DNA from: a virus | Taxonomy: Duplodnaviria; Caudoviricetes | Direction: 5' to 3' (one strand) | Length of the DNA: 64,000 nucleotides | Virus record (IMG/VR): IMGVR_UViG_2791355419_000001 | Coordinates: 1,323 to 65,322 of that record | Shown here: positions 23,936 to 45,269 of the stretch, in pieces | How positions within the stretch are numbered: position 1 is the stretch's first letter | Layout of the letters: each line of letters opens with the position of its first letter | Notes under the pieces: generated by a model | Seen by the model: only the letters and a program-made list of their open reading frames with translations | What the model was told of the DNA's origin: nothing | Database searches by the model: none | Made by a program: the position numbers and the translations under genes

Positions 23936-24697
23936 TCAGAACTCGTATTCGAGCTCGTAGAGATGGCCCGCCTTGGCCATGATCTCCGCCTGGATCGGCC
24001 TATCGTCCACGCTGTACGTCACGCGGAACTGGCGGAGGACCGGCAGCTTCGTCGGCATCCTCAACGCCTTCGCCTGCTCCGGCGTCGGCCACCGCGCTGC
24101 CACCTTGTCAACGCAACGCAACGGCGGCAGGCCGGCCTCCAACAGGACTCGACCCACGCCACCCCGGATCTTCCGATTCTCGGCGATAGGCGTCCCTCGG
24201 GCCAGGTCGAGCGGAATGTACACCTCGACCAACTCGCAAGGCTGATCGTCCAGGTAGAGCACCTGGCGGCGCATCTGCGCCTTCTCGTCCTCGGCGAGGC
24301 CGAAGGCGTCCCGGATAGCGGCGGGCGGCACGACCTCTTCGACCGCGAGTAGATCGCTCTTGCCTGCCAGCCCCTTCTGCTCGGCGGCAGCGATCCACTG
24401 GTACTTCCCGCCGTCGCCAGGAGGGTTCTTGTAGCTCGCCGGCTCCATCGTGCGCTGCCGATGCTGCCGGGCGTACACGCCAGCACCCCGCCTTGTGTAG
24501 GCGAGTCCCTCCTTCTCGAGCATGGTGACCGCGTTGCGGATCGTCTGTGCGGCGGCACCGAAAAGATCGGTCAGCTGACGGCTGGACGGAAGTTTCTCGC
24601 CAGGAGGGAAGTCGCCGTTGAGGATGCCGTCTCTGAGGTATGCGGCGATCTGGTCCTGAACGGGCCAGACGCTCTCTTCCTCGAACTCTTCTGTCAC
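23936..24697 (-). CDS. GntR/HutC-family repressor (KorA/TraR/KorSA-like)
   Basis: N-terminal QIAAYLRDGILNGDFPPGEKLPS wHTH and C-terminal UTRA; divergent from transfer operon. Confidence 0.88.
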   Translation of the reverse strand: MTEEFEEESVWPVQDQIAAYLRDGILNGDFPPGEKLPSSRQLTDLFGAAAQTIRNAVTMLEKEGLAYTRRGAGVYARQHRQRTMEPASYKNPPGDGGKYQWIAAAEQKGLAGKSDLLAVEEVVPPAAIRDAFGLAEDEKAQMRRQVLYLDDQPCELVEVYIPLDLARGTPIAENRKIRGGVGRVLLEAGLPPLRCVDKVAARWPTPEQAKALRMPTKLPVLRQFRVTYSVDDRPIQAEIMAKAGHLYELEYEF

Positions 24698-24698
24698 G

Positions 24699-25232
24699 TC
24701 AGTGGGCCTTCATTGAGTAGTGGAGCCGTCCAATGCGGCCGGGGCTGACCATGACGGACACCTCGTATGGGTGGCCGCCGCTGGAGATGACGCGAGTGAG
24801 GCAGAGGATCCACTCGTGGTTGTCGGCGAGTTGCAGAGCCTCGGCTTCCTCTCGCGTCGGCGGCCTCGTCGTGACGTACTCCTGGACCGACTCGGGCTTG
24901 TAGCCCAGCGAGGCGAGCAGGGATACGGCGCCGCCGCGTATCCGCCCCTTCTGTGCCAGTGCTGTCTGCGCGGCGAAGCTGGCTGGCCAGTAGGAGTTGG
25001 CCAACTCGATGGGGCGGCTGTCCAGCGAGATTAGGCGCTGCCTCAGGATGACGGGTGTGCCGGGAGTCAGGCCGAGGTGGGCCGCCACTTCCTGCGGGGC
25101 GCTGGCTTGCTCTGCTCGCAGGATCCGCTGGGTGCCAGTGCGCCCCTGAGCTGCTGCCTCTTTACCCCACACGTCACCCTGGCCGCTTTCTAGGTAGGGC
25201 GCTGACGACCCAGTCCAGTGCGTTTCTGTCAC
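24699..25232 (-). CDS. UTRA-only protein (no HTH)
   Basis: GGAGGAG RBS; VILRQRLISLDSRPIELANSYWP...RIRGG...RPPTREEAEALQL aligns with UTRA of neighbour. Confidence 0.8.
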   Translation of the reverse strand: MTETHWTGSSAPYLESGQGDVWGKEAAAQGRTGTQRILRAEQASAPQEVAAHLGLTPGTPVILRQRLISLDSRPIELANSYWPASFAAQTALAQKGRIRGGAVSLLASLGYKPESVQEYVTTRPPTREEAEALQLADNHEWILCLTRVISSGGHPYEVSVMVSPGRIGRLHYSMKAH

Positions 25233-25352
25233 TCGCGACTCCTCCAGTTCACAAGGTCTCTTGAGCCATCCATCAGTTTCTCCACCATAAGGCCAGTTCA
25301 CGAGGGGCGGCGGAGCATACGAGAGCGGTTCGGGCGGGCGAGACGATTGCAG

Positions 25353-25382
25353 CTTCTCAAGAATGCACCTACAGTTGAGAAG
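25353..25382. promoter_or_regulatory. Candidate operator in divergent kor/tra intergenic region
   Basis: Inverted repeat CTTCTCAA-N14-TTGAGAAG. Confidence 0.45.
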
Positions 25383-25417
25383 TCAGCTCAACCCCAACTC
25401 CTGGATTGGAGAGCCCG

Positions 25418-25648
25418 ATGCTGCCTGCGGATCAGGAGCTGCTCACCGTGCGAGAGGCCGCAGTGCTGCTGCGGATCTCCAAGCCGACGGTCTACCGCTG
25501 GATCGACAACGGCGACCTGCCGGCCATCCGCTACGGACAGCCGCGAGCCGAAGGCGACCCGAGGCGCGGGGGAGCGATCCGAATCCCGAGGGACGTCGTC
25601 ATGGCGCTCCGCGAGACCACAAACCCGTCCACCGAGGAGGCGGCATGA
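25418..25648 (+). CDS. Excisionase-like (HTH_17) protein
   Basis: LLTVREAAVLLRISKPTVYRWIDNGDLPAIR...IRIP. Confidence 0.85.
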   Translation: MLPADQELLTVREAAVLLRISKPTVYRWIDNGDLPAIRYGQPRAEGDPRRGGAIRIPRDVVMALRETTNPSTEEAA

Positions 25649-25842
25649 CCACCGCGACCCCTACCTACCCCGTCCTCACCTTCGCCGACGCTGTGGCCGA
25701 CTGCCCCGAGCACCGCGCGCAGCACGAGGAGGCCGAGGCGCGCTACGCCAAGGACCTCGCCGAGTACGGTGCCTCCATTCAGATCCGCGACCGCCGCCAG
25801 CTCGGACTGCACATCGCGCCCGTCAAGGCGGTGACGGCATGA
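25645..25842 (+). CDS. Hypothetical protein
   Basis: ATGA-coupled, GAGGAGG RBS. Confidence 0.65.
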   Translation: MTTATPTYPVLTFADAVADCPEHRAQHEEAEARYAKDLAEYGASIQIRDRRQLGLHIAPVKAVTA

Positions 25843-26315
25843 CCACCGCAACCCCTCCCCCCACCCCCACTGCCCCGCTTCCGCCGGCTGCTGTGTCGGT
25901 GCTGCACCGTCTGGAGCGCGCGTTCCTGCCGCTGGACCTGGTCCGTGCAGTGACCCGCTACGAGGTGGCGACGGCTCGTAAGGCGGAGCTGGAGGCGAAG
26001 CCGACGCGTGAGTGGTCGGGTACCGACTTCGACTCTTGGGTCGACTGTGAGCGCACGATCCTCGATTCGGTGATGGTGCTCGTCGCGGCTGGGCGTATGG
26101 ACCTGCTTGAGACCCCTGTCGACCCGGTGATTCGTGCGGCAGCGGACTTCCGTAAGGCCGCTCTTCGTGCGGCGGCCCTTTCGAACGAGGCGCTGAGCCC
26201 CAACATGGCGGACCTGGACGCGGACTCCCTGGCTGCCGCCGAGGATCTGATGGCCGGCGCCCGCGCGACGCTCGCTGCTGCCGGAATGCTGCACCTGATC
26301 GGCGGTGGCGTCTGA
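25839..26315 (+). CDS. Hypothetical protein with internal duplicated helical domain
   Basis: Two repeats ending LVAAGRMDLL and LAAAGMLHLI. Confidence 0.7.
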   Translation: MTTATPPPTPTAPLPPAAVSVLHRLERAFLPLDLVRAVTRYEVATARKAELEAKPTREWSGTDFDSWVDCERTILDSVMVLVAAGRMDLLETPVDPVIRAAADFRKAALRAAALSNEALSPNMADLDADSLAAAEDLMAGARATLAAAGMLHLIGGGV

Positions 26316-26599
26316 TGGCCCGCCGGTTCAAGGACATGCAGACGGAGGAGCAGCGGTACGCGGCTCGTCAGGCGCCGGCGCTTCGGCATATGGCCTACCA
26401 GGCCGAGCAGGAATCCGAGCGGCAGCAGATGACCGCTGACGTGTACGGCCGTCAGGGCCGGGACTACTCGGATCCGGCGAAGGCGTCCCGTGCACAGCGT
26501 GAGGCGGACCGGCTGCGCGACCGAGGCAAGGGCCTGCGGGAGACCGCGAACCGCGCCGAGGCCGAGGCGACGCCGAAGAAGAAGCGGCGGTGGTTCTGA
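26315..26599 (+). CDS. Small coiled-coil protein with basic/aromatic tail
   Basis: Coupled ORF ending KKKRRWF. Confidence 0.7.
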   Translation: MARRFKDMQTEEQRYAARQAPALRHMAYQAEQESERQQMTADVYGRQGRDYSDPAKASRAQREADRLRDRGKGLRETANRAEAEATPKKKRRWF

Positions 26600-26760
26600 T
26601 GGCCCGCGAGGTGTACGACAGCTTCCCGGCCGGCGCCCCGCGTGGTTCGTGGCCGGCGGAGGAGAAGGCGCAGCAGCTCCGCGAGTCCGGAACCCCCGCC
26701 ACGGTCGTGATGGACCTGGACGGCGACCGGTTCCTCGTCGTCGAGGAGGTGGCCCGGTGA
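26599..26760 (+). CDS. Hypothetical protein (53 aa, not in ORF track)
   Basis: TGATG-coupled; MAREVYDSFPAG... Confidence 0.6.
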   Translation: MAREVYDSFPAGAPRGSWPAEEKAQQLRESGTPATVVMDLDGDRFLVVEEVAR

Positions 26761-27098
26761 GCACCTCTGAGATCTACAAGCTGCGTTGGCAGCGTGACGC
26801 GCATCGTGCGCTCGGCGAGTTCCTTCAGGTCAACGGGATGCCCGTGATCTCGTGGACGATCGCTATCTCGGGCGCGCTGGTCGGGGATGTCGATTCGCTG
26901 ACGTCGACGCCGGGCGAGATGCGGGCCGCGTTCGAGGCGTGGGTCCGGCAGCTCAACGCGGCTGTGTGGCCGGAGCGGATCGACTCGGACGGCACGGTCC
27001 ATCTGCACGCCAAGTTCGCGTGGGTGCAGAACCCGGATGTTCGCGGTGCGATCCGCGCCACGATCGCCCCGCCGACGTGCGAGGACGGCGCGTCGTGA
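26757..27098 (+). CDS. Hypothetical protein
   Basis: GAGGAGG RBS, GTGA-coupled. Confidence 0.65.
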   Translation: MSTSEIYKLRWQRDAHRALGEFLQVNGMPVISWTIAISGALVGDVDSLTSTPGEMRAAFEAWVRQLNAAVWPERIDSDGTVHLHAKFAWVQNPDVRGAIRATIAPPTCEDGAS

Positions 27099-27279
27099 CC
27101 GACTCCGAGCGTGCCGAGCTGTCCCGGAAGGTCGCCGAGGCCAACCGGCGGTCCGAGTCCCGGCCGAAGCCCTAACCCCCTAGACCGCCGCGGGCGGGTC
27201 GACCCCCTGTCCCCGCCCGCGGTGCCCGCCCCGTACCACCCCACTGTTCCTGTGACCTTGAAAGGGTCTGTGATCCCCC

Positions 27280-27510
27280 ATGTCTCCGTACCTGTTCTCC
27301 GCCGACTTCGGCGTCACCGTGTTCGGCCGGAAGGCCCGCGCCGCTACGACGGTGGCCGAGGCGACCGTGCTGTCCATCAGCGACCTGTTCGGCGAGTACG
27401 CCAAGGCCCGCGCTGCCGGCGACCTGGCCCGGATGCGGCAGATCCGTGAGATCGCCGACGCGGAGCTGCTGGCCGAGCTCGACGGTTTCGACTACCCGGC
27501 CGCCGCCTGA
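27280..27510 (+). CDS. Hypothetical protein
   Basis: GC3-rich ORF after hairpin. Confidence 0.7.
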   Translation: MSPYLFSADFGVTVFGRKARAATTVAEATVLSISDLFGEYAKARAAGDLARMRQIREIADAELLAELDGFDYPAAA

Positions 27511-27595
27511 CCGGCTGCCCGATCCGCCCGTCTCGCACGGGCGGTGAGGGGAACCGCTCAGCGTTCCACCACCCAACCCCGAGAGGAGCCCGACC

Positions 27596-27799
27596 GTGGG
27601 CCTGTTCAAGAAGACCGCCGAGGAGAAGGCCGCCGTCGCCGAGATGAAGGCGGCCGACCGTCGGCTGAACGACAACAGCGACCGTGAGTTCAAGGCCGGG
27701 ATCCGTCACGAGACGCCCAAGTATCAGGAGCTCAACGCCAAGGCCAACGAGGCCGCCGCGAAGGTGTCGTTCTGGCACGGCGGCACCAAGCGCCGCTGA
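27596..27799 (+). CDS. Small helical protein
   Basis: GAGGAG RBS; MGLFKKT...; flanked by 21-bp direct repeats. Confidence 0.7.
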   Translation: MGLFKKTAEEKAAVAEMKAADRRLNDNSDREFKAGIRHETPKYQELNAKANEAAAKVSFWHGGTKRR

Positions 27800-27847
27800 C
27801 CGGCTGCCCGATCCGCTGGCTCCACGCCGGCAACGAGAGGAGGAATC

Positions 27848-28945
27848 ATGAAGCGCATCAGTAAGGTCCAGGCGGCGGCCCGCCGGCTGGACGTGTTCGC
27901 TGTCGTTGAGAAGCTGCTCACTCTTGCCGCCCTGGTCCTGGTCGCCGTGACCGTTGGCGGGCAGCTGGGGCAGATCCTCGGCCTGCACGGCACGCTCGGC
28001 ATGCTCGTCGGCTGGTCGATCGCGATCGTGTATGACGCGCTGTGGATCGGTGCTCTGCGCATGTCGGAGGTGGCGATCCGGCAGCGGTCCGCGGTCGGCA
28101 TCGCTGTGATGATCGGTCTGTCGGTTGTGGCGGTTGGTACGTCGACGGCGACGCTGCTGGTCCTCGGGCACGCCCAGGTGTTCGCGTTTGTCCCGGTGGC
28201 CGCAGCTTTGTTCATGGGTCTGCGGCTGTTCGCGGGGAACGTCCTCGCGGACGCGGAGACTGCAGCGGTCATCGCCGAGCAGTCGGCGGCCGACCGCAAC
28301 GCCCGCGCCCTGGCTGCAGCCGACGCCCGGCATCTGCGGTCCGAGGCCACCACGGACGTCCTCACCGAAACCGCCGGCCACCTGGCGGAGATGGAACGGC
28401 AGATCGCCCGCGCCGATGTGCTGACCCGGGCGCAGGCTCAGATCAACGAGGCCCGCGCGAAGGCGGAGGGCCGCCTGGCGAAGTCCGAGAAGGAGCACGG
28501 TGTCGCCGCCCTGGCGTACACAGAGCGCGACTTGAGTCTGGCCGTCTCCCGGCCGGCGGTCACGGCTGGCGGAGACACCCGGGCCGAGCTGGATGGTCAC
28601 ACGGTGGTCACACAGGCCACCCCGGAAATCGAGCCCGTGACCATTCCGCCCGTGACTGCGGACGAAACGGACATGGTCGAGGGGTGCGACCAGACCCCCA
28701 TAGAGGACGGCATGGACCTTGCCGAACTCGCGGCGGTCGCCGGTGTCGAGCTGCCCCAGCCGGGCGCCCGACTGTCCGACGAGCAGCTCGCCGTCGTCCT
28801 TCGCTGGCTCCGCTACGGCATGGAGCCGCCCCGCTCCTACCGGCAGGCGCAGAAGGATTTCCGCGCCGCCGGTTTCACCGCCCGCGAAGAGCGCGTCCGC
28901 CGCGTCTGGGGTGAGATCGAACGCCGCGAAACACAGGTCAGCTGA
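27848..28945 (+). CDS. spdB: SpdB-like plasmid spreading protein
   Basis: Four N-terminal TM helices (…WSIAIVYDALW…), coiled coil, low-complexity linker, C-terminal HTH-like domain. Confidence 0.7.
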   Translation: MKRISKVQAAARRLDVFAVVEKLLTLAALVLVAVTVGGQLGQILGLHGTLGMLVGWSIAIVYDALWIGALRMSEVAIRQRSAVGIAVMIGLSVVAVGTSTATLLVLGHAQVFAFVPVAAALFMGLRLFAGNVLADAETAAVIAEQSAADRNARALAAADARHLRSEATTDVLTETAGHLAEMERQIARADVLTRAQAQINEARAKAEGRLAKSEKEHGVAALAYTERDLSLAVSRPAVTAGGDTRAELDGHTVVTQATPEIEPVTIPPVTADETDMVEGCDQTPIEDGMDLAELAAVAGVELPQPGARLSDEQLAVVLRWLRYGMEPPRSYRQAQKDFRAAGFTAREERVRRVWGEIERRETQVS

Positions 28946-29042
28946 CGCACGCCGGCACCGCCAGTGAGGCCCAGCACCCCCCGCGGTTCTGGTCCTTGCT
29001 GAGACTGCCGGAAGCAGTCGAACAGGCAAAACCCCAGTTCAA

Positions 29043-29098
29043 GTCCGGTGAGTGACCCGGTGAGCGGAACGATCGCAGACCCGGCGAGCAGACCCGGA
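29043..29098 (+). repeat. Candidate clt locus (TraB recognition repeats)
   Basis: GACCCGGT 29054, GACCCGGC 29078, GACCCGGA 29091 in non-coding gap. Confidence 0.4.
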
Positions 29099-29138
29099 CC
29101 ACCGCACAAGCAGATCCCCGACCAGACAGGAGGACGAG

Positions 29139-29372
29139 ATGGCCACCCGCACCCGGCGCCCCAGGCAGGCCGATAGACAGGCCCGCTCAGCCCAGCACTT
29201 GGGCGACCGGCGCCGGGCCGCGGAAGCCCAAGGACCCCTCACCGTCCTCCCGGTCGCCGTGGACCAGCTGCGTGCGGCGATCACCCGGCTCCCCGAATCA
29301 CGGCGAGCCGAAGCTGCCGCCAAGGCGACGCAGCTGCTCGACCAGCTCCGCCAGTCCATCGCCGAAAGCTAA
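29139..29372 (+). CDS. Hypothetical protein
   Basis: AGGAGG RBS. Confidence 0.65.
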   Translation: MATRTRRPRQADRQARSAQHLGDRRRAAEAQGPLTVLPVAVDQLRAAITRLPESRRAEAAAKATQLLDQLRQSIAES

Positions 29373-29501
29373 CCGAACGTAATGGCTCAACGGATGGCTC
29401 AAGCCGTCCCAGGCCGAGCCCAAGGATCCCGACGCGCCTGCGCGCGCCCGCGCGCGCGAGGAAACCACTAACTCACCGTAACCTCAAGGGGGTACCCCGA
29501 A

Positions 29502-29969
29502 ATGCCCGTCATCGACGCAGGGATCTCCGCCGCAACCGGCGGAACCTGCCTGGGAGCGGCCGGCGTGCTGTACGTCGCCGACCGGCTCCCCTGGATCAAC
29601 CGGCTCGCCGCGAAGATCAAGAGCCCGCAGATTCAGGTGCTGCTCGTCCTCACCGCATCCATCGGCCTCGTCTCCACCCCGGTCGGCCAGCTCATCAACC
29701 GGGCAACCACCGCTGTCGACGGCTTCGTCGACGGCCTGGCGGGGGAGTGGACCGGCTTCGGAATCATGTTCGCTCTTGCGCTGGCCGCCCTGCTGTGGCT
29801 GATCAGCGACTTCATGAGCGGTGTGCAGACTCGCACGCTCCTGCTGGCCGCCTTCGTTCCGCCGCTGACCGTGATGATCCCTGGATCGCTGGGCGACGGC
29901 GCAGCCTCCGCGCTCGGCTTCATCGCCACCCAGGTCGGATCCCTCGTCATGTGGCTGATGGGGGGCTGA
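29502..29969 (+). CDS. Multi-pass membrane protein (Spd/transfer-associated)
   Basis: About four hydrophobic segments; upstream of traB. Confidence 0.7.
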   Translation: MPVIDAGISAATGGTCLGAAGVLYVADRLPWINRLAAKIKSPQIQVLLVLTASIGLVSTPVGQLINRATTAVDGFVDGLAGEWTGFGIMFALALAALLWLISDFMSGVQTRTLLLAAFVPPLTVMIPGSLGDGAASALGFIATQVGSLVMWLMGG

Positions 29970-29970
29970 C

Positions 29971-30792
29971 ATGCTCGGCCTCATCCTGCTGCTGGCGATC
30001 GCCTACTGCTGCGCCCGCGGCCTGGAAAACGCCATCGGCGACGTGTCCGCCAAGCACAAGAAGCGGATCAAAAAGGCTTCGGCGAAGAAGGGCCGCCGCA
30101 CCGGCGCCAAGCTCGCCGCCTGGGCCGCCACCGCCGTGACCGCCGCCGGACCGTTCTGTAAGGGCTTCGTCCGCGCATGGAAGCGCGAGTGGCCCAAGGC
30201 GAAAGAGCGGGCCGCCGAGAAGCTGCGCCGCCGCAACCCCGACCCCGTCGAATCCGCCGAGCCGACCCGGCAGCGCGCCGACGACGGCGCCCGCGAGCAC
30301 ACCGAGCCCGCCACCACGGCCCCGGCGGGGACCGACAGCCGCAAGCTCGTCCTGATCAAGAACGACGACACCCACACCACGGAAGGAAAGCCCATGGCAC
30401 TCGCCACCATCCCCGAGATCACCGGCGTCAACACCCTCAAGCAGGCCGTCGCCCGATTCGCCTCCGAGGCCGGCGTCACGGCCGAAGAGGCCGGCGCCAT
30501 CGCCCAGCGTGCCGCCGACCAGCTCGCCGCGATCGAGGCCGCCATCGAGCAGGCCTCCGCGCTGGAGTTCGGCGACGACGGCGGCACTCTCGAGGAGCTC
30601 TCCGCCCTGCGCGACCAGTACGCCGCGGCGCTTGCCTCCGCCCAGGCCCTGCAGAAGGCCGCCGTCGACAACGCGGCGATCGCCGCCCAGTCCTCGCAGA
30701 ACATCCACTCCCGGCACGGCGGCATTCAGGAAGCCGTCGCCGCGACCGGCGGGCGCATGGCCTCCAAGCAGGCCTACACCGCCGACGCCTGA
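29971..30792 (+). CDS. Membrane-anchored protein with C-terminal helical hairpin (TraA-like position)
   Basis: N-terminal TM; Ala-rich coiled coil ending HSRHGGIQEAV; immediately upstream of traB. Confidence 0.65.
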   Translation: MLGLILLLAIAYCCARGLENAIGDVSAKHKKRIKKASAKKGRRTGAKLAAWAATAVTAAGPFCKGFVRAWKREWPKAKERAAEKLRRRNPDPVESAEPTRQRADDGAREHTEPATTAPAGTDSRKLVLIKNDDTHTTEGKPMALATIPEITGVNTLKQAVARFASEAGVTAEEAGAIAQRAADQLAAIEAAIEQASALEFGDDGGTLEELSALRDQYAAALASAQALQKAAVDNAAIAAQSSQNIHSRHGGIQEAVAATGGRMASKQAYTADA

Positions 30793-30793
30793 C

Positions 30794-30865
30794 CCACCGT
30801 GCGGCCCCGGCACGGTGGCCGGGGCCGCACGGTGGCCGGGGCCCCGGCCACCGTGCCGGGGCCGC
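30794..30865. repeat. Nested direct/inverted repeat upstream of traB
   Basis: Perfect 26-bp IR 30801-30826/30840-30865 overlapping 17-bp IR 30794-30810/30819-30835. Confidence 0.85.
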
Positions 30866-30909
30866 CCAATCCCCGCAGACTTCACGAACCCGCAGGAGTA
30901 GCAGCCGCC

Positions 30910-32937
30910 ATGCCGAAGACCATCACCGTCGAAAAGACGACCGCCGACGAGCAGACCCTCCCGGCGCCGGGCAAGCGCGGCTCCTCCCGTAAGACCAGCA
31001 GTAAGGCCGCCCGGCGTGCGATGCGTGTCGCCTACCGCACCCGCCGAGGCATGGCCCCCGTCTACGCCACCGCCGCCCAGGCCATAGCAGGCAGCGTCCT
31101 CGCCGTGCCCGACGACGGATGGAAGACCGCGCTCGCCGCCACCGCGGCTGGAGCTGCCGCCACCGTCGCCTGGGGTCGCTGGGATGCCCGCCTCGGCAAG
31201 AAGCGCCTGCGTAAGCGGCTCCCCGTCCGTGCCGACTTCATCGCCGCCGCGTCCGCCGTGACCACCGGTGGCAGCCTCGTCACCGCCATGGCCGCAACCG
31301 GCGGCCTCCAGCTCGGCGACAGCCCCTACCCGGCCCTCGTCGGCGCATGGGGCATCGGGCACGGCATCTACTGGTGGCGGCGCGGAAAGCGGACAGCGGC
31401 GCCCGCGCCCGCCCTCAGCAAGCAGTTGCAGCTTTGGCAGGACAATGTGTCCTGCTCCGACGGCCCCCTGCCCGGATCCGGCCTCGCCGATGTCGTCACC
31501 ACCGACTACGGCTGGACTGCCGTCATCGTCCTAGACAAGGGCACCTGGCGGAGGGCCGTCACAGCGGCGGGAGACATCGCGGGCGCCCTCGACCTGCCCG
31601 AAGAGATGATCCAGATCGAGAAGGCTATCGGGCAGTCCGCCCGCCGGGCGATCATCGCCGTCTTCGACCGCAACCCTCTCCAGGACGGCACCACCTACCC
31701 CGGCCCGCACATCCTCGACAAGACGACCGGGCAGGCCGAGGTCGGCATCTTCTACGACGGTAAGGGTGCCCGCTACGCCTTCTGGAAGCCGTCCGGTCCC
31801 GTTCACAGCGTCATCTACGGCGCCACCGACGGCGGCAAGTCCCGCTTCCTGGACATGCTGCTGTCCACCGAGCGCCACAACGGGATCGTGTCCTGGGTGT
31901 GCGACCCGCAGGGCGGCCAGTCCCTGCCCCGCTGGCGTGAGGCCGTCGACTGGTACGAAGACACCGCCCAGGGCGGCCTCGCCATGCTGTACGCCCTGCG
32001 CAACGTCATGTACGAGCGCTCCGCCCGCTACTCCCTCATGGAATGGACCGACCCCAAGGGCCGTGTCCTGCGGGGCCGGGACCACTTCGTCGTCAACGAC
32101 CCCGACCCGCTGATCGTCATGACGATCGACGAAGCGCATCGGGTCCTCGCCCTCCCGGGTGCCGTCGCCCTCGTGCTGGAAATCGTCCTGATGGCCCGCA
32201 AGTGCGGCATCAAGCTCCGCCTCGTCTTCCAGGGCCCCAAGGCCAACATGTTCGGCGCCGGCCCCGAGTCCACCGACATCCGCGAGCAGCTTCAGTCCGG
32301 CAACACCGTCATGTTCCGCACCGCGTCCGCGCTCACCGACTCCATCGGCCTGCCCGGCTGGGAGGTCAACCCCAGCCAGCTGCCCATGTACTGGCCTGAC
32401 GGCACCTCCACCGCTGGCCTCGGTTTCATCAAGGGCCCCGACAACCGGCAGGCCCAGTTCCGAGCCCACTTCGACCGTGACCCCGCCCACTGGGCCACCA
32501 CCGGCACCACGCCCACTGTTGAGCCCTCGGCGGCGGCCGTGACTGGCAAGGCCTACGCCGAGCGCCTTGACCGCCTTGCTGCCCGCTTGCGCGGTGAGAC
32601 GCCCGTGCTTCCTGACGACGCCTTCCAGGATGGGCCCACCGATCCCGCGAGGCTCACGCCGTCCAACGACCCCATCGCCCAAGCCTCGGCCGCAATCGCA
32701 GCCGAAGCCCCGGCCGGCACCGACGAGAAGGTCGCAGCGTTCCTCGCCGAGCGTGGCCGACCCGTCGGCCGTAACACCATCGCCCAAGAAACCAAGCTCA
32801 CGATCAGCGCCGTCAAGAACGCCCTCACCCGCCTCAAGAGTAAGGGGCTCGCGGTCGCCGTCGACCGCGGCATCTGGGCCCACCCCGACCACGCCAAAAC
32901 CCCAGCAGACGCCACCGAATACGCCGACGCCGCCTAG
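30910..32937 (+). CDS. traB: FtsK/SpoIIIE-family conjugative DNA translocase (TraB-like)
   Basis: N-terminal TMs, Walker A GATDGGKS, WVCDPQGG, Walker B MTIDEAH, ARKCGI, C-terminal winged HTH. Confidence 0.85.
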   Translation: MPKTITVEKTTADEQTLPAPGKRGSSRKTSSKAARRAMRVAYRTRRGMAPVYATAAQAIAGSVLAVPDDGWKTALAATAAGAAATVAWGRWDARLGKKRLRKRLPVRADFIAAASAVTTGGSLVTAMAATGGLQLGDSPYPALVGAWGIGHGIYWWRRGKRTAAPAPALSKQLQLWQDNVSCSDGPLPGSGLADVVTTDYGWTAVIVLDKGTWRRAVTAAGDIAGALDLPEEMIQIEKAIGQSARRAIIAVFDRNPLQDGTTYPGPHILDKTTGQAEVGIFYDGKGARYAFWKPSGPVHSVIYGATDGGKSRFLDMLLSTERHNGIVSWVCDPQGGQSLPRWREAVDWYEDTAQGGLAMLYALRNVMYERSARYSLMEWTDPKGRVLRGRDHFVVNDPDPLIVMTIDEAHRVLALPGAVALVLEIVLMARKCGIKLRLVFQGPKANMFGAGPESTDIREQLQSGNTVMFRTASALTDSIGLPGWEVNPSQLPMYWPDGTSTAGLGFIKGPDNRQAQFRAHFDRDPAHWATTGTTPTVEPSAAAVTGKAYAERLDRLAARLRGETPVLPDDAFQDGPTDPARLTPSNDPIAQASAAIAAEAPAGTDEKVAAFLAERGRPVGRNTIAQETKLTISAVKNALTRLKSKGLAVAVDRGIWAHPDHAKTPADATEYADAA

Positions 32938-32957
32938 GCCCGGAAGGAGACCAGATC

Positions 32958-33425
32958 ATGCCCACACAGCCTGAGCCCACCGACCGGGCAGAAGTCACCA
33001 AGCTCGCCATCGCCGTCGAGGAGGCACTGGCCGAGGCCATGCCGACTCGCTACCGCGATGAGAGCCCGCTTCCCGCCTACGGCAGCGCCCCTCCCGCCGC
33101 GCAAGACGGCATCCCCCCGATGTCCGCGCGTACCACCGAGGTCACTCGGGCGGTCATGTACTGCAGCCTCGCCACCGTGCCGCCCGGGCTCGTCGCCACC
33201 GCGATCCTCGTCGCCTCTGAGCACGCCAACCCGACCGTCATCGGCATGATCTGCGCCGCTCCCGCGGCGATCGCCGTGCCGATCCTCGCCATCGCCCGGC
33301 TCATCCGGCGTGCCGGGGAGGCCGCACCCGCCGAGATCCACCAGCACTACAGCGGGCCTGTCTACCAGCGCCACACCCACAGCAGCACCCGCGGCGTGTG
33401 GGCCAAAACCACCAACCAGCAGTAG
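32958..33425 (+). CDS. Two-TM membrane protein downstream of traB
   Basis: AAGGAG RBS; two hydrophobic helices; HQHYSGPVYQ tail. Confidence 0.7.
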   Translation: MPTQPEPTDRAEVTKLAIAVEEALAEAMPTRYRDESPLPAYGSAPPAAQDGIPPMSARTTEVTRAVMYCSLATVPPGLVATAILVASEHANPTVIGMICAAPAAIAVPILAIARLIRRAGEAAPAEIHQHYSGPVYQRHTHSSTRGVWAKTTNQQ

Positions 33426-33434
33426 GAGAACCCG

Positions 33435-33623
33435 ATGGAGCGCTACCACTCCCTGTACTGGATGTACACGATCCTCGCGCCGCTCATCCTGGGCCTGATC
33501 GCCCTCGTTCTGATCGCCCTGCCCGGAGATCCCAGCACCGGCCGCATGCTCATCGGGCTGGGGGTCTACCTCGTGATCGCCATCGTCGGCGGCGCTGTCG
33601 TGACCCGGCATCTCGACCGCTGA
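33435..33623 (+). CDS. Small two-TM membrane protein
   Basis: AGGAG RBS; two hydrophobic helices. Confidence 0.7.
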   Translation: MERYHSLYWMYTILAPLILGLIALVLIALPGDPSTGRMLIGLGVYLVIAIVGGAVVTRHLDR

Positions 33624-35890: not shown

Positions 35891-35913
35891 CCGCAGTACA
35901 GGAGGTGGCGCCC

Positions 35914-36204
35914 GTGGTCGGCAACCCGCGCAACGGGCGCCCCTACCGCCGCCTCTGCGAGCAGCAGCGCGCCCTTGGCCTCCCCTGCTGGTGGTGCGGC
36001 GAACCCATCCGCTACGACATCACCGGCCCCCTCGCAGGCCGTCACCGCGACGCCTTCACCCTCGACCACGCCGTCCCCCTCTCACGCGGCGGCAACCTCC
36101 TCAACCCGGCCAACGCCCGCAGCGCGCACCGCCGCTGCAACAGCGCCCGCGGCAACCGCACCGACGCCAAGCGCCAGCCAGTCCGCGCCTCACGGAAGTG
36201 GTGA
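35914..36204 (+). CDS. HNH endonuclease (packaging-associated)
   Basis: CWWC...LDHAVPLSRGG...N..SAHRRCNSARG. Confidence 0.88.
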   Translation: MVGNPRNGRPYRRLCEQQRALGLPCWWCGEPIRYDITGPLAGRHRDAFTLDHAVPLSRGGNLLNPANARSAHRRCNSARGNRTDAKRQPVRASRKW

Positions 36205-36206
36205 CC

Positions 36207-36613
36207 ATGGCCGTGCCCGCCCGCGCCGTTCCGTTCATCCTGCGCCTGGCCGACGGCCGCACATGGGGAGGCGCTGAGTTCCCCGGCGGCTTCCTCTGCC
36301 TGCACCACCCTGATGAACTGAACGTGTGCACGATCGCCGTGTCGCTCGGCGCCCTGCTTGTCGATCAGCAGCCCGGTGACCCGCTGCACGGCGCCGAGGT
36401 GATCGAACGAGAGTGGTGGTGACCATGGCATCAGGCGACACCACGGGAACGGCTCAGTGCCCCGAGTGCCACGAGTCCGTGGAGTTCCCTGTGCGTGCCC
36501 GACACCGCAGCAGGACCGAGGTTGAGGTCTCCGTGGATCTCGACCCCGTGCGCGAGCACGTTGCCAGCCACGCGGCGCGCTACGTGACGGAGCTGCCCCC
36601 GACGGCGAGGTGA
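36207..36613 (+). CDS. Two small hypothetical ORFs (36207-36422, 36425-36613)
   Basis: Tandem ORFs in late operon. Confidence 0.5.
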
Positions 36614-36619
36614 CGCACC

Positions 36620-37063
36620 GTGCTGTACGTCGTCACCGGCCCGCCGGCCGCAGGCAAGTCCAGCTGGATCGATGCGCGCGCCCGGCCCTCGGACATCGTC
36701 ATCGACCTGGACCGCATCACCCAGGCCCTGATGGGCCCCGGCGCCCCCGCCTGGTCCCAGCACCCCATCGCCATGAAGGTCGCTCACCGCGCCCGGTACG
36801 CCGCCATCGACGAGGCCGTGAAGCACCTCGACGAGGTCGACGTGTACCTGATCCACACCATGCCCAGCGCCAAGTGGCTGGCCCGCTACCGGAGTCACGG
36901 TGCCGAGGTGGTGGCGGTGGACCCGGGCAAGGACATCGTGATGCAGCGGGTCAGGGACATGCGCGCGCCAGGACTACAGGCTGTGGCGACGCGCTGGTAC
37001 GCACGGCAGGCCAAGCAGCGCAGCGAACACCGAGTCACACGGCAGGCGTCGCGAAGCTGGTGA
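36620..37063 (+). CDS. AAA_33-like P-loop protein
   Basis: VVTGPPAAGKSSW, VIDLDRI. Confidence 0.8.
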   Translation: MLYVVTGPPAAGKSSWIDARARPSDIVIDLDRITQALMGPGAPAWSQHPIAMKVAHRARYAAIDEAVKHLDEVDVYLIHTMPSAKWLARYRSHGAEVVAVDPGKDIVMQRVRDMRAPGLQAVATRWYARQAKQRSEHRVTRQASRSW

Positions 37064-37384
37064 CCGACTCGCCCAGGGCGACGCCGGCCATGTGCCCTTG
37101 CGACGCCGCCGCACCGTCTCCCCCGGCAGAGCAGCCAGAGGGAGTGCATACGGTGACTGGCCAGGGCTCGGCCGGGGGACGGGCCCGGTCGGCGGGCGAT
37201 CGGACCGCGTGGGAGGGGGGCCCGAGTCCATCGTGAAATTCGGAGGACCGGGCGACCCAAACGCCCTTCTCGCCCGATTTTTTGCGCGGCGATTTTGAAA
37301 GATCAATTCGCGTGAACCCGGTTCTACTGTTTTAGCGGCCGTCACTCAGCGTGATGTGACGTTCCGTCACCGTCGGGGGTGATC

Positions 37385-37660
37385 ATGGACGTCGCTGACA
37401 AGATCGCCGCCGAACTTGAAGATCTCCACGCCGATGAGACATCGCCCGGCATGGCGGCCGTCGCCCGCGATCTCGCTCAGGCGATCGACGACTCTGACGC
37501 CCCCACCGCCAAGGCCGTCGTCGCCGACAAGCTCCGCTCGATCATGGCCGACCTGCGCAAGCTGGCGCCCGTTGAGGTGAAGGGGGATGCCGTCGATGAC
37601 GTTGGTCGCAAGCGAGCAGAGCGTCGAGCCGCCCTCCAGCAGCAGACAGCCGGTGAGTGA
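37385..37660 (+). CDS. Terminase small subunit
   Basis: Small helical ORF overlapping TerL start; LAQAID...VDDVGRKRAERR pattern. Confidence 0.7.
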   Translation: MDVADKIAAELEDLHADETSPGMAAVARDLAQAIDDSDAPTAKAVVADKLRSIMADLRKLAPVEVKGDAVDDVGRKRAERRAALQQQTAGE

Positions 37661-41070: not shown

Positions 41071-42275
41071 TGGACACCAAGACCCTGCGCGGGGTCGAGA
41101 TCAAGGACGAATCGAAGGGGGAGGTTACCGCAGTGTTCGCGACGCTCGGCGTCCGCGACCACGACGGGGACTTCACCCGCGATGGTGCCTTCACTGACGG
41201 GGCCCCTGTGCGGATCAGCGCCTACGGTCACAAGTCGTGGGACGGCCTGCTTCCGGTTGGCAAGGGAGTCATCCGGATCAAGGGCAAGAAGGCCATCCTT
41301 GAGGGCCAGTTCTTCATGAACACCACCCATGGTCGTGACACGTTCGAGACCGTCAGGGAGCTGTCGGAGGCCGGGCTCCAGGAGTGGTCATACGGCTTCG
41401 ACATCAACGAGTTCAGCTTCGGCGAGGAGAAGGGGCAGCAGGTCCGCTACCTGGACCGTGTCACGGTGCACGAAGTCTCGCCGGTGCTGCTCGGTGCCGG
41501 GATCGGTACGCGCACGCTGTCGGCGAAGGGCCGCGACCTGGCGGATGCCGGATACACGCCTGAGTCGGTCAAGGCTGCCGTGCAGGCCCAGGACTGGAAC
41601 CTTCTGGAGTCGGCGACGCCCGGAACGGCGCCAGCGCCCGCGGTGAAGCGGGGCATTCCGCGCCATGAGGCCGAGGTGGTTTCCCGGGCGTGGGATGCGC
41701 CCGGCATGGTTGCCGCACTGCCCGAGGACGCCCGCCCGTCCCAACTGCGATCGGTGTTCGCATGGATCGACCCGGACGGCGATCCGGAAGTGAAGTCGTC
41801 CTACAAGTTTCCGCACCACCACGGCGTGGGTGGCCCGGCTAACGCTCGGGCATGCCTGGCCGGCATTGCGGCTCTGAACGGGGCGCGCGGTGGCGCGGAC
41901 ATTCCCGAGGCGGACCGTAAGGCCGTCTACAACCACCTGGCGGCGCACCTGCGTGACGCCGACCGGGAACCCCCGGCGCTGCGGGACCGCAGCGCCGGGC
42001 TTGCGAAAGGCCAGACCCTCAACGAGGAACTGGTCGAAGCCCTCACCTATGTGTCGGGGGCGATCGAAAGCGCGTCCAGGGTGGCCGCCCTGCGTGCAGA
42101 GAAGGGCAAGACGCTCTCCCGAGGCAACACCGAAGTCCTGGACTGGATCGGTGACGACCTCAAGCGCCTGAACGCCCTGCTTACCACCCCACCTGCGGGC
42201 ACGGTCAGTGACGAGGAACTCGCTTCTGTCTTCCTGGCCGGACTCGCTCGTCTGCACGAAGGAGCAGAACGATGA
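41070..42275 (+). CDS. HK97-family prohead protease with C-terminal extension
   Basis: DHDGD..GAF, YGH, EWSYGF, HEVSPVLLGA. Confidence 0.88.
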   Translation: MDTKTLRGVEIKDESKGEVTAVFATLGVRDHDGDFTRDGAFTDGAPVRISAYGHKSWDGLLPVGKGVIRIKGKKAILEGQFFMNTTHGRDTFETVRELSEAGLQEWSYGFDINEFSFGEEKGQQVRYLDRVTVHEVSPVLLGAGIGTRTLSAKGRDLADAGYTPESVKAAVQAQDWNLLESATPGTAPAPAVKRGIPRHEAEVVSRAWDAPGMVAALPEDARPSQLRSVFAWIDPDGDPEVKSSYKFPHHHGVGGPANARACLAGIAALNGARGGADIPEADRKAVYNHLAAHLRDADREPPALRDRSAGLAKGQTLNEELVEALTYVSGAIESASRVAALRAEKGKTLSRGNTEVLDWIGDDLKRLNALLTTPPAGTVSDEELASVFLAGLARLHEGAER

Positions 42276-44014: not shown

Positions 44015-44024
44015 GGAGGCCGGT

Positions 44025-45268: not shown

Positions 45269-45269
45269 C

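What the first reader, a model, noticed from the sequence alone, without database searches (positions are those of the whole stretch)
23936..33623. Complete-looking prophage hard-wired with a Streptomyces TraB/Spd conjugation module: a candidate conjugative phage
Seen: between the early genes and the HNH/terminase block lies a divergent GntR/UTRA repressor, an xis-like HTH, an SpdB-like 4-TM protein, several small membrane proteins and a TM-anchored FtsK/SpoIIIE ATPase with C-terminal wHTH. The operon is co-oriented with the phage genes, and I find no Rep, integrase or flanking target duplication, so it does not look like an autonomous AICE that just landed. All head, tail, lysis and replication ORFs around it look uninterrupted. 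Known: Streptomyces plasmids and AICEs transfer double-stranded DNA using a single TraB translocase, Spd proteins and a GntR Kor/TraR repressor, without relaxase or T4SS; a plasmid-phage with both lifestyles (pZL12) has been described. Inference: the excised phage circle, replicated by its own initiator/DnaC/DnaB, can be pumped between hyphae by TraB, giving a receptor-independent, non-lytic route alongside virion production.
Basis: partly seen in the sequence, partly recalled or inferred. Interest (0 to 1): 0.92.

Follow-up and report, generated by a model that had tools for sequence, protein, structure and literature searches.

The report
Prophage carrying a plasmid-type DNA-transfer cassette
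An apparently intact integrated Streptomyces prophage carries, just upstream of its DNA-packaging genes, a set of plasmid-style genes that normally pump double-stranded DNA between hyphal compartments, so the phage genome may be able to spread without making virus particles, as is already known for the free plasmid-phage pZL12.

Summary
The listed genes are real. Window 23936-33623 holds a GntR/UTRA regulator, an excisionase-family HTH, an SpdB-type 4-TM protein, small membrane proteins and a 675-aa ATPase. Pfam misses the ATPase, but a family profile and an AlphaFold model both place it nearest the FtsK motor, with a C-terminal winged helix.

The "no integrase, no att" statement is a window-edge artefact. 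The element is a 66,491-bp prophage with exact 31-bp direct repeats and a tyrosine integrase ending at window base 7.

The conserved core is 27848-33425. It recurs at 60-97% protein identity in 15 IMG/VR viral contigs with otherwise mosaic genomes. In 8 of the 9 contigs with a capsid hit it lies 5.5-12.4 kb upstream of, and co-oriented with, the portal or capsid genes.

A conserved non-coding stretch after the SpdB-like gene carries three direct GACCCGG repeats, matching the pSVH1 TraB recognition sequence.

The cassette is an accessory mosaic module, not hard-wired. A 43.5-kb terminal-repeat phage contig with about 60% identical head genes lacks it, and the adjacent GntR is kept in only 3 of 15 relatives.

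pZL12, a known conjugative plasmid-phage, has the same layout and distant homologues.

Verdict: a new integrative variant of a known kind. Transfer itself is untested.

The parts
1..7 (-). First codons of the prophage tyrosine integrase (gene = G000:C202:128552-129880, 442 aa). attL (31 bp) lies at window -1429..-1399 and attR at 65031..65061, both outside the window.
   Evidence: Pfam Phage_int_M 5.4e-5 and Phage_integrase 9.7e-5, both below the curated cut-offs. Synteny breaks and an empty site in relatives. Exact 31-bp repeat, element 66,491 bp.
394..948 (-). XRE/HTH_3 regulator at the left arm, a candidate prophage repressor
   Evidence: Pfam HTH_3 6.4e-9
11167..14215 (+). Phage replication genes: HTH_36 initiator-like protein, DnaC/IstB-like loader, DnaB helicase
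   Evidence: Pfam HTH_36 3e-8, IstB_IS21 4.3e-12, DnaB_C 2.1e-86
23936..24697 (-). GntR/UTRA (HutC-type) regulator, divergent from the rightward operon
   Evidence: Pfam GntR 1.2e-16, UTRA 2.9e-17; phrog_10724 1.5e-41. An adjacent divergent GntR occurs in only 3 of 15 related viral contigs.
24699..25088 (-). UTRA-only ORF without an HTH
   Evidence: Pfam UTRA 2.6e-14
25406..25648 (+). Excisionase-family HTH protein, first gene of the rightward operon. Not conserved in relatives.
   Evidence: HTH_17 3.3e-15; TIGR01764 8e-14; no tblastn match in the 15 viral loci
27848..28945 (+). SpdB-type protein: four N-terminal TM-like segments, a coiled-coil middle and a C-terminal HTH. First gene of the conserved core cassette.
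   Evidence: Four hydrophobic segments. Precomputed PF27079 on it and on all 120 listed homologues; the family is named HTH_SpdB_C, which also lists 'putative Protein spdB' clusters at score 0.95. 69-81% identical in 11 of 15 viral loci. DUF2637 not matched.
28946..29139 (+). Conserved non-coding stretch with three direct GACCCGG repeats (29054, 29078, 29091) plus a degenerate copy. Candidate clt (TraB recognition sequences).
   Evidence: Two or more copies at the same place in 9 of 13 loci. Alignment of 12 sequences is highly conserved. Only about 7 loci in the 10.4-Mb genome have 3 copies within 60 bp. The pSVH1 consensus is GACCCGGA (PMC5133688 passage).
29140..29373 (+). Small basic ORF (78 aa) of unknown role
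   Evidence: Sequence read; start region aligned in relatives; no Pfam hit
29502..29969 (+). Membrane protein with 3 TM-like segments. The start could be 29502 or 29565.
   Evidence: 35% identical (E 1e-24) to the syntenic 155-aa protein of a Streptomyces linear plasmid. 72-97% identical in 13 of 15 viral loci.
29971..30792 (+). N-terminally anchored, Ala-rich helical protein (273 aa)
   Evidence: One N-terminal hydrophobic segment. BLASTP E 5e-6 and 1e-4 to the syntenic 403-aa plasmid protein. 60-80% identical in 13 of 15 viral loci.
30794..30865 (+). GC-rich hairpin(s) between the previous stop and the ATPase start. Duplicated in this window.
   Evidence: Perfect 26-nt inverted repeat. A single hairpin with conserved stems and variable loops in all 13 aligned relatives.
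30910..32937 (+). TraB-like DNA translocase: N-terminal helical, weakly hydrophobic region, FtsK-type motor, C-terminal winged helix
   Evidence: Walker motifs; profile to FtsK 2iuu E 1.3e-7; AF2 pLDDT 78.8; Foldseek FtsK 1.8e-13, TcpA, EccC. Up to 37.6% identical to proteins on 165 actinomycete plasmids. 74-89% identical in 15 IMG/VR contigs. hhalign to pZL12.71c: probability 73%, E 3.2e-5.
32958..33425 (+). 2-TM protein, last gene of the conserved core
   Evidence: phrog_19266 4.6e-40. Its only matches in 50,697 phage records are the two database records of pZL12, at the position of gene pZL12.70c directly downstream of the pZL12 Tra: 32% identity, E 1e-4.
33435..33623 (+). 62-aa protein with 2 TM-like segments
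   Evidence: present in 3 of 15 loci
35905..39134 (+). HNH endonuclease (35905-36204), small ORFs, and terminase large subunit (37587-39134)
   Evidence: HNH 7.6e-7; TerL_ATPase 6e-4, below cut-off
39643..56783 (+). Portal, prohead protease, HK97-type capsid, tail tube, tape measure, tail proteins and amidase endolysin
   Evidence: Phage_portal 1.2e-32, Peptidase_S78 9.7e-6, Phage_capsid 7.7e-29, Phage_tube_2 4.1e-30; Amidase_2 1e-22
59311..60159 (+). Short (282 aa) serine recombinase in the right arm
   Evidence: Resolvase 1.3e-19 plus the first half of the Recombinase domain, 5.1e-7

Best explanation
Window 27848-33425 is a plasmid-type double-stranded-DNA transfer/spread cassette. In this copy it also has its own GntR/UTRA regulator and a variable leader region from 23936. 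It is carried as an accessory module by a 66.5-kb integrated temperate siphovirus-like prophage.

Shown:
- The cassette encodes an SpdB-family 4-TM protein, three further small membrane proteins and an FtsK-fold ATPase with a C-terminal winged helix.
- It contains a conserved non-coding block with direct GACCCGG repeats.
- It is homologous to gene clusters on Streptomyces linear plasmids and, more distantly, to the tra locus of the plasmid-phage pZL12.
- It always sits just upstream of the packaging and head genes, in many otherwise mosaic phage genomes.

Inferred mechanism:
- After infection or excision, the phage genome replicates as a circle using its own initiator, DnaC-like loader and DnaB.
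- The ATPase binds the GACCCGG repeats (a clt) through its winged helix.
- It assembles as a ring with the SpdB-like pore protein and the small membrane proteins at cross-walls or hyphal tips.
- It pumps unprocessed phage dsDNA into neighbouring compartments (intramycelial spread) and possibly into other mycelia (conjugation). This would give a virion-independent route alongside lytic release.
- The GC-rich hairpin before the ATPase gene, and in this copy the GntR repressor, would keep expression low.
For: - Gene identities.
- Plasmid homology and synteny: the ATPase matches 165 actinomycete plasmid records (146 Streptomyces) at up to 37.6% identity. In two plasmids examined, the context is divergent GntR, then DUF2637, small genes, a ~155-aa and a ~400-aa protein, the ~700-aa ATPase, then RRQRL zinc-binding protein; a NUDIX hydrolase was annotated in one of the two. 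Pairwise homology holds for the 3-TM protein (E 1e-24) and the 273-aa protein (E 5e-6).
- Phage lineage: 15 IMG/VR contigs carry the ATPase at 74-89% identity. The core genes are conserved and the flanks mosaic. 9 of 15 have an HK97 capsid hit and 10 of 15 a tyrosine integrase. Three contigs have direct terminal repeats.
- Position: in 8 of the 9 contigs with a capsid hit, the ATPase lies 5.5-12.4 kb upstream of, and co-oriented with, portal or capsid. The ninth fits only if its contig is circularly permuted (coordinates).
- clt-like repeats. The recognition sequence and the role of 8-bp repeats come from passages of PMC5133688 and PMC4447253.
- Precedent: pZL12 (GQ919031) has GntR / small membrane genes / .72c / FtsK-like .71c / .70c next to the terminase-side genes. 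The window's 155-aa protein matches pZL12.70c, and the ATPase profile aligns with .71c over 550 columns. Citing passages say pZL12 transfer needs a major tra gene plus adjacent genes (PMC3583192), and that plasmid-phages conjugate as episomes and also make particles (PMC4170104).
- SpdB2 homologues on actinophages were already suggested to help spread phage DNA (PMC4447253).
- No defence-system match beyond a weak ATPase hit.
Against: - No experiment or read data bear on transfer, excision or packaging of this element.
- The ATPase fails Pfam FtsK_SpoIIIE by direct search, and its N-terminal anchor is only weakly hydrophobic.
- Homology to pZL12.71c is marginal (hhalign probability 73%), and tblastn against the phage collection found nothing at 1e-5.
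- The SpdB-like protein does not match DUF2637, the plasmid DUF2637 protein or pZL12.73c.
- The GACCCGG cluster is absent or degenerate in 3-4 of 13 loci and absent from the two plasmid loci examined. The conserved block could instead be a promoter, operator or RNA element.
- The GntR partner expected of a Kil-Kor pair is adjacent in only 3 of 15 relatives.
- A terminal-repeat phage contig with related head genes has no such cassette, so the phage life cycle does not need it.
- The lineage is rare among species representatives. In 401 Streptomyces genomes, only G000 itself and one 55%-identical match exceed 41% identity (run with a stricter first look).
Confidence: 0.55

Rival explanations
1. 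The cassette serves the phage in some way other than moving its own genome. Options include superinfection exclusion or defence (expelling or blocking incoming DNA), host growth arrest of the Kil type during the lytic cycle, or membrane and cell-wall remodelling that helps release.
For: FtsK-like genes are common in actinophages, including lytic ones, without a known role (passages in bioRxiv 10.1101/2024.02.16.580700, PMC13587820 and PMC11536984). The cassette sits between early and late genes, where accessory genes accumulate, next to a Panacea antitoxin block. It is dispensable for a phage with related head genes.
Against: The full set of partners typical of plasmid transfer is kept together: SpdB family, small membrane proteins, FtsK-fold motor with winged helix, and direct 7-8-bp repeats. 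The closest relatives outside phages are on plasmids. PADLOC gives only a weak hit (mad8, E 0.0022) for the ATPase and none for the other nine proteins scanned.
Confidence: 0.17
2. The cassette is a remnant of an AICE or plasmid that recombined into an ancestral phage. It is now carried passively, or it mainly mobilises host chromosomal DNA, making lysogens 'fertile', rather than the phage itself.
For: It has no Rep, integrase or att of its own, and its upstream region is mosaic. TraB recognition clusters on the chromosome are reported to allow chromosome mobilisation (PMC5133688 passage). About 6 other GACCCGG clusters exist in this genome.
Against: All five core ORFs are intact and 32-97% identical across 15 contigs, while the flanks have diverged or been replaced. 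Two non-coding elements are conserved. The position relative to the late genes is fixed. The repeat cluster lies inside the phage genome, so the phage itself would be a substrate.
Confidence: 0.13
3. The 66.5-kb element is not a functional phage. It would be a conjugative integrative element, or a defective prophage, that merely retains phage structural genes.
For: No induction, particle or read evidence is available (one search found no usable runs). There is a short serine recombinase and some fragment-like ORFs, namely 23295-23792 and the UTRA-only ORF. The TerL Pfam hit is sub-threshold.
Against: Long uninterrupted ORFs exist for TerL, portal, protease, capsid, tube, 1153-aa tape measure and endolysin, plus replication genes. 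Exact att repeats and an integrase are present. Related contigs are rated 100% complete by CheckV, and three carry terminal repeats.
Confidence: 0.1

Closest known systems
Streptomyces plasmid-phage pZL12 (Streptomyces phage ZL12, GQ919031), tra locus pZL12.70c-.80
   Same: Same order and position: divergent GntR regulator, small membrane proteins, a large protein, an FtsK-like ~700-aa ATPase, then a small 2-TM protein, directly upstream of the terminase and structural genes. The window's 155-aa protein matches pZL12.70c (32% identity, E 1e-4). The ATPase family profile aligns collinearly with pZL12.71c (hhalign E 3.2e-5). Conjugal transfer is reported to need the tra gene plus adjacent genes; I saw this only as citing passages (PMC3583192).
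   Different: pZL12 is a 90-kb circular extrachromosomal replicon with ParA/ParB. This element is chromosomally integrated, with a tyrosine integrase and 31-bp att repeats. The ATPases are too far apart for tblastn at 1e-5. The SpdB-like protein has no detectable counterpart in pZL12.73c. The pZL12 paper itself is not held.
TraB/Spd/TraR conjugation system of Streptomyces plasmids (pSVH1 type)
   Same: A single FtsK-like motor with a C-terminal DNA-recognition domain, an SpdB-family pore-type membrane protein, further small Spd-like membrane proteins, direct GACCCGG(A)-type repeats, and a GntR regulator divergent from the operon (literature passages).
   Different: The ATPase does not reach Pfam FtsK_SpoIIIE and DUF2637 is not matched. 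The host replicon is a tailed-phage genome. The GntR is not a conserved partner. No functional data exist.
Gene clusters on Streptomyces linear plasmids (e.g. NZ_CP119148.1, NZ_CP109321.1)
   Same: They hold the nearest non-phage homologues of the ATPase (about 37% identity), the 3-TM protein (35%) and the 273-aa protein, in the same order and preceded by a divergent GntR.
   Different: The plasmids have a longer DUF2637 protein, an extra ~128-aa gene and RRQRL-type zinc-binding genes downstream, with a NUDIX hydrolase in one of the two, and no GACCCGG cluster. These plasmid clusters are annotated as hypothetical and are themselves uncharacterised.
AICEs (pSAM2, SLP1 type)
   Same: Integrated element with a tyrosine integrase, an excisionase-family HTH, a GntR regulator, TraB-like and Spd-like genes.
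   Different: No RepAM or Prim-Pol (RepSA not tested). The element is 66.5 kb with full phage replication, packaging, head, tail and lysis modules. Two classical AICE-like loci with Pfam-positive TraB and DUF2637 exist elsewhere in the same genome and serve as positive controls.
FtsK-like and SpdB2-like genes noted in cultured actinophages (phiC31, VWB, Mandalore, Naboo, Geonosis, Jaresh)
   Same: Single genes of these classes are known in Streptomyces phages, and SpdB2 homologues were proposed to help spread phage DNA.
   Different: Neither the ATPase nor the SpdB-like protein of this cassette matches any of 50,697 deposited phage records. Here the whole plasmid-type set, with clt-like repeats, is present together.

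Membership tests
Streptomyces TraB-type conjugative DNA translocase | FtsK/SpoIIIE-type motor domain with Walker A and B motifs | tested here: met
   Walker motifs; family profile to FtsK 2iuu E 1.3e-7; Foldseek top hits are FtsK motor domains at E 1.8e-13, TM 0.59-0.63 on the target. Distant homologues carry PF01580.
Streptomyces TraB-type conjugative DNA translocase | Match to Pfam FtsK_SpoIIIE (PF01580) above threshold | tested here: not met
   No Pfam hit at E<=0.01 for the protein. The genome-wide PF01580 search lists 13 places, none in this element.
Streptomyces TraB-type conjugative DNA translocase | C-terminal winged-helix domain that recognises 8-bp direct repeats (clt) on the transferred replicon | tested here: inconclusive
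   A winged-helix fold is present. Three direct GACCCGG repeats lie in a conserved non-coding block 1.8 kb upstream. Binding was not testable.
Streptomyces TraB-type conjugative DNA translocase | N-terminal membrane association | tested here: inconclusive
   AF2 predicts five N-terminal helices. Hydrophobicity peaks are only 1.43 and 1.46.
Streptomyces TraB-type conjugative DNA translocase | Hexameric ring; ATP-dependent transfer of dsDNA | not testable with these tools
   Needs biochemistry and mating assays.
SpdB (plasmid spread protein) family | Four TM helices plus the SpdB C-terminal HTH domain (PF27079; N-terminal PF27080) | tested here: met
   Four hydrophobic segments. Precomputed PF27079 on the window protein and on all 120 listed homologues. 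Atlas neighbours are 'putative Protein spdB' clusters with PF27079/PF27080 at score 0.95. PF27080 itself could not be run, as it is not in the local library.
DUF2637 (PF10935) | HMM match | tested here: not met
   No hit. The genome-wide search finds 6 places, none in this element. BLASTP to a plasmid DUF2637 protein is not significant.
Kil-Kor pair (TraR/Kor GntR repressor with traB) | GntR-family repressor genetically linked to the tra operon | tested here: inconclusive
   Present and divergent in the window. It is adjacent in only 3 of 15 related contigs; in the others the GntR genes lie far away or are absent.
AICE | Int + Tra + Rep (RepSA, RepAM or Prim-Pol) as one compact integrated element | tested here: not met
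   Int and Tra-like genes are present, but there is no RepAM or Prim-Pol on the contig (RepSA not tested). Instead the element is a 66.5-kb phage genome.
Temperate tailed phage (integrated prophage) | att repeats, integrase, and replication, terminase, portal, capsid, tail and lysis genes uninterrupted | tested here: met
   Particle production not testable.
Streptomyces plasmid-phage (pZL12 type) | Extrachromosomal maintenance (ParA/ParB, plasmid replication) together with phage structural genes and a tra locus | tested here: not met
   The element is integrated in a 273-kb contig between conserved chromosomal genes. The tra-like locus and phage genes are shared in layout with pZL12. I ran no dedicated ParA/ParB search; none appeared among the proteins I scanned.

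The most novel reading that the evidence does not exclude
Chromosomally integrated temperate phages of Streptomyces carry a complete TraB-Spd-clt system as a second, virion-independent transmission route. After excision or infection, the replicating phage circle is pumped across cross-walls and between mycelia. One infection or induction event could then lysogenise or kill a whole multicellular colony and reach receptor-less hosts. The slot directly upstream of the terminase has been filled independently by at least three very distant Tra clades: this lineage, pZL12, and the 85-kb S. californicus plasmid-phage. That would mark it as a conserved 'DNA-spread' module of phages of mycelial bacteria.
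Probability: 0.4. Interest if true: 0.75.

Novelty: new variant of a known kind. Interest (0 to 1): 0.55.

Why it matters
Phages of mycelial bacteria face a host made of many connected compartments. If this cassette works as its plasmid relatives do, a temperate phage could spread its genome inside and between mycelia without particles. That would blur the line between prophage, AICE and plasmid. It would also change how host range, lysogenisation and gene flow in antibiotic-producing Streptomyces are modelled.

The concept has a precedent in the episomal plasmid-phages pZL12 and pFP4. What is new here:
- an integrative version;
- a distinct and apparently unannotated Tra clade ('hypothetical protein' in all named hits);
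- a defined five-gene core with two conserved non-coding elements;
- a clear candidate clt, which makes the idea directly testable.

Tried and rejected
- **Direct family scans of the ATPase.** Pfam, PHROGs and NCBIfam gave nothing useful: no Pfam hit; phrog_1123 at 0.005 on the C-terminus only; TraD at 0.061. A single-sequence PDB search found nothing. I therefore moved to a family profile and a fold.
- **Deposited phages.** tblastn of the ATPase and of the SpdB-like protein against 50,697 deposited phage records gave no match.
- **tRNA integration site.** Rejected: ARAGORN finds no tRNA in the window or in either junction locus.
- **Nested AICE with its own att.** Rejected: only degenerate direct repeats occur in 19-38 kb, and there is no RepAM or Prim-Pol.
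- **Promoter/terminator consensus scan of 23.5-38 kb.** Uninformative: 1 promoter-like and 2 terminator-like sites, at or below the shuffle expectation.
- **Other GACCCGG clusters in the genome.** Seven loci have such a cluster. None of the other six lies next to the Pfam-positive TraB genes, so this gave no internal validation of the repeat as a recognition sequence.
- **Strand skew of GACCCGG.** In window genes the coding:template ratio is 18:4, against 397:246 in about 0.9 Mb of control genes. I judged this too weak to use.
- **Sequencing runs.** No RNA holder was listed. Only three soil-metagenome runs held 5-6% of the sampled words. I did not lay reads, so there is no evidence on expression, excision or packaging.
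- **PADLOC.** Only a weak mad8 hit at 0.0022.
- **S. californicus plasmid-phage Tra versus pZL12.71c.** Not significantly similar by BLASTP.
- **Supplements.** Supplementary files of papers were not consulted. The supplements of PMC4447253 and of the pZL12 paper may hold details on which adjacent genes are needed for transfer.

Full report
**What the window is.**
The window is G000:C202:129874-193873 on a 273-kb contig of a 10.4-Mb, 70% GC genome. Ordinary ORF listing is useless at this GC content, so I called genes by third-position GC. The map, from left to right:
- a leftward XRE regulator (394-948);
- a long rightward early block containing a DUF3799 exonuclease, an AAA_24 protein, a C5 methyltransferase, an HTH_36 initiator-like protein, a DnaC/IstB-like loader and DnaB;
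- a leftward accessory block at 20.9-25.1 kb, with a Panacea antitoxin, DUF6083 and GntR genes;
- a rightward operon from 25.4 kb that runs through the region in question into HNH, TerL, portal, S78 protease, HK97 capsid, tail tube, a 1153-aa tape measure and an amidase endolysin.

**Boundaries.**
Comparing both junctions with 30 relatives shows chromosomal synteny stopping at about C202:128480 and resuming at about 195065. One relative, G013, has the two flanks 65 bp apart, which is an empty site. An exact 31-bp direct repeat lies at C202:128444 and 194904, with unrelated sequence outside it, giving a 66,491-bp element.

The 442-aa gene next to the left repeat ends at window base 7. It matches Phage_int_M and Phage_integrase, each just below the curated cut-off. 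No tRNA lies at the junctions. So the element is an ordinary integrated prophage whose integrase and att sites lie just outside the window. A short serine recombinase (59311-60159) and a Ku gene sit in the right arm.

**The genes of the finding.**
All are present.
- The 365-aa protein at 27848-28945 has four hydrophobic segments and carries the precomputed domain PF27079, as do all 120 listed homologues. One search names that family HTH_SpdB_C and places the protein next to 'putative Protein spdB' clusters at score 0.95. It does not match DUF2637.
- The ATPase gives no Pfam hit directly. A profile of 21 family members hits the FtsK motor at E 1.3e-7, from Walker A through the post-Walker-B motif, and hits winged-helix domains at the C-terminus.
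- The AlphaFold model (mean pLDDT 78.8, motor mostly above 85) has FtsK motors, the FtsK-like coupling protein TcpA and EccC as its best Foldseek matches.
- The start at 30910 is supported by the 13 aligned relatives, most of which keep an aligned ATG and Shine-Dalgarno-like GGAG, and by relatives of about 657-681 aa.

**Where the cassette comes from.**
The ATPase has homologues at up to 37.6% identity on 165 actinomycete plasmid records, 146 of them Streptomyces. In two linear plasmids examined, the neighbourhood runs: divergent GntR, DUF2637 protein, small genes, a ~155-aa and a ~400-aa protein, then the ATPase, followed by an RRQRL zinc-binding protein; a NUDIX hydrolase is annotated in one of them. 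The window's 3-TM protein and 273-aa protein are homologous to the syntenic plasmid proteins (E 1e-24 and 5e-6). The SpdB-like and 155-aa proteins are not detectably so.

**Is it part of a phage lineage?**
IMG/VR holds 15 distinct viral contigs encoding the ATPase at 74-89% identity. A tblastn matrix of all 99 called window proteins against those loci gives two results:
- The five genes 27848-33425 are conserved. The SpdB-like, 3-TM and 273-aa proteins and the ATPase are 60-97% identical. The 155-aa protein is 32-77% identical.
- Almost everything else differs, including the genes at 25.4-27.8 kb, the terminase and the head genes. TerL is shared with 2 of 15.

Of the 15 records, 9 have an HK97 capsid hit, 5 a portal hit and 10 a tyrosine integrase. 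Six are classed as proviruses and three have direct terminal repeats. Most of the records without capsid hits are 21-40% fragments.

From the coordinates, the ATPase gene lies 5.5-12.4 kb upstream of, and co-oriented with, the portal or capsid genes in 8 of the 9 records with a capsid hit. The ninth fits only if its linear contig is a circular permutation. In the window the distances are 6.7 kb to portal and 9.3 kb to capsid.

Conversely, phage contigs whose portal, protease and capsid are about 60% identical to the window's lack the cassette in the 7-10 kb upstream. One of them is a 43.5-kb contig with terminal repeats. It has no match anywhere to PF01580 or to the ATPase family profile.

The cassette is therefore a conserved, position-specific but accessory mosaic module. 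It is neither a chance AICE insertion nor a hard-wired part of one phage.

It is uncommon among species representatives. 25 of 401 Streptomyces genomes match at E<=1e-20, but apart from G000 only one exceeds 41% identity, at 55% (that search used a stricter first look). Even so, the protein collection holds about 70 clusters at 73% identity or more.

**Regulator.**
A GntR gene occurs in 11 of 15 records. It is adjacent and divergent only in G035, G041 and, across the ends of a terminal-repeat contig, G043. The Kor/TraR reading of 23936-24697 is thus plausible for this copy but is not a conserved feature.

**Candidate cis sites.**
I confirmed three direct copies at 29054, 29078 and 29091.
- The motif is not enriched in the window overall: 27 seen against 30.5 expected.
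- Three copies within 60 bp occur at only about 7 loci in the whole genome.
- The roughly 190-bp non-coding block is strongly conserved in 12 aligned sequences. Two or three copies are kept in 9 of 13 loci, and single-base variants appear elsewhere.
- A review passage gives GACCCGGA as the pSVH1 TraB recognition consensus (PMC5133688). A passage of PMC4447253 states that clt regions contain direct 8-bp repeats recognised by the cognate TraB.
- Binding is untested. The plasmid homologues lack this cluster.

A second conserved element is a GC-rich hairpin between the 273-aa gene and the ATPase start. It is present in 14 of 14 sequences, with variable loops, and is duplicated in the window. It could damp ATPase expression.

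**Comparison with what is known.**
Passages in the literature state three things:
- Streptomyces plasmid-phages propagate and conjugate as episomes and also make infective particles (PMC4170104, citing pFP4).
- pZL12 transfer needs a major tra gene and adjacent genes (PMC3583192).

The pZL12 paper itself is not held. The pZL12 record (GQ919031) shows the same layout: GntR .80 divergent from small membrane genes, then .72c, the FtsK-like .71c and .70c, followed by the terminase-side and structural genes. Two links to the window's cassette stand out:
- The window's 155-aa protein has its only matches among 50,697 phage records in the two database records of pZL12, at the position of pZL12.70c.
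- The ATPase profile aligns with .71c end to end at hhalign E 3.2e-5, probability 73%.

An 85-kb S. californicus plasmid shows the same arrangement: GntR, Tra, terminase, capsid and tail. Its Tra is 24% identical to the window's and is not significantly similar to pZL12's.

FtsK-like genes are also reported in cultured Streptomyces phages without a known role. I found no paper describing this clade or an integrated prophage with a full Tra/Spd/clt cassette, using searches. Those searches cover only the held open-access library.

**Verdict.**
It is overstated on three points: 'no integrase', 'hard-wired', and the GntR link. Function is unproven.

My estimates:
- about 0.8 that this is a genuine TraB/Spd-type dsDNA translocation cassette by descent;
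- about 0.5-0.6 that it moves the phage genome between compartments or hyphae.

I class it as a new, integrative variant with a distinct Tra clade of a known kind.

Noticed in passing
window 57721-58734 (+), chiefly ~58080-58734: ORF encoding an N-terminal hydrophobic segment followed by long collagen-like Gly-X-Y repeats. It lies just after the lysis genes, and my GC3 gene caller missed it.
   Followed up: no
window 59311-60159 and 60968-61840: A 282-aa serine recombinase (Resolvase domain plus only the first half of the Recombinase domain) and a Ku protein, both inside the prophage right arm in addition to the tyrosine integrase.
   Followed up: partly
window 20912-23792 (-): Leftward accessory block: SocA/Panacea antitoxin (21383-21835), DUF6083 protein (22060-22383), and an ORF combining a GIY-YIG fragment with a partial GntR HTH (23295-23792) that looks like a decayed or chimeric gene.
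   Followed up: partly
window 30794-30865; L015-L029 at the same gap: GC-rich hairpin before the ATPase start. Stems are conserved and loops variable in 14 of 14 sequences. In the window it is tandemly expanded, giving alternative perfect hairpins.
   Followed up: partly
G000:C123:21618-31742 and G000:C172:31421-37250: Two classical AICE-like loci in the same genome. Both have a Pfam-positive TraB, DUF2637 and a tyrosine integrase. C123 also has RepAM and Prim-Pol.
   Followed up: no
L047 (NZ_CP070261.1, 85 kb, S. californicus): Annotated as a plasmid, but it carries terminase, major capsid, HK97 gp10, tape-measure-sized and tail genes next to a GntR-Tra module, plus a polyketide synthase gene. 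It looks like another plasmid-phage. Similar-sized S. chartreusis and S. anulatus plasmids also hit the ATPase but were not examined.
   Followed up: partly
homologue tables: Many homologues have a longest contig of about 60-68 kb (for example 59,743; 60,040; 60,874; 62,269; 63,192; 63,339; 63,512; 63,905; 64,558; 66,088; 68,452). This suggests the phage often assembles as its own contig, either as an episomal or induced form, or because assemblies break at its ends.
   Followed up: no
window genes overall: GACCCGG is skewed to the coding strand: 18:4 in window genes against 397:246 in about 0.9 Mb of chromosomal control genes. The skew is weak and possibly reflects codon usage.
   Followed up: partly
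window 8861-10669: 602-aa C5 cytosine methyltransferase in the early region, which could protect the phage DNA from host restriction.
   Followed up: no
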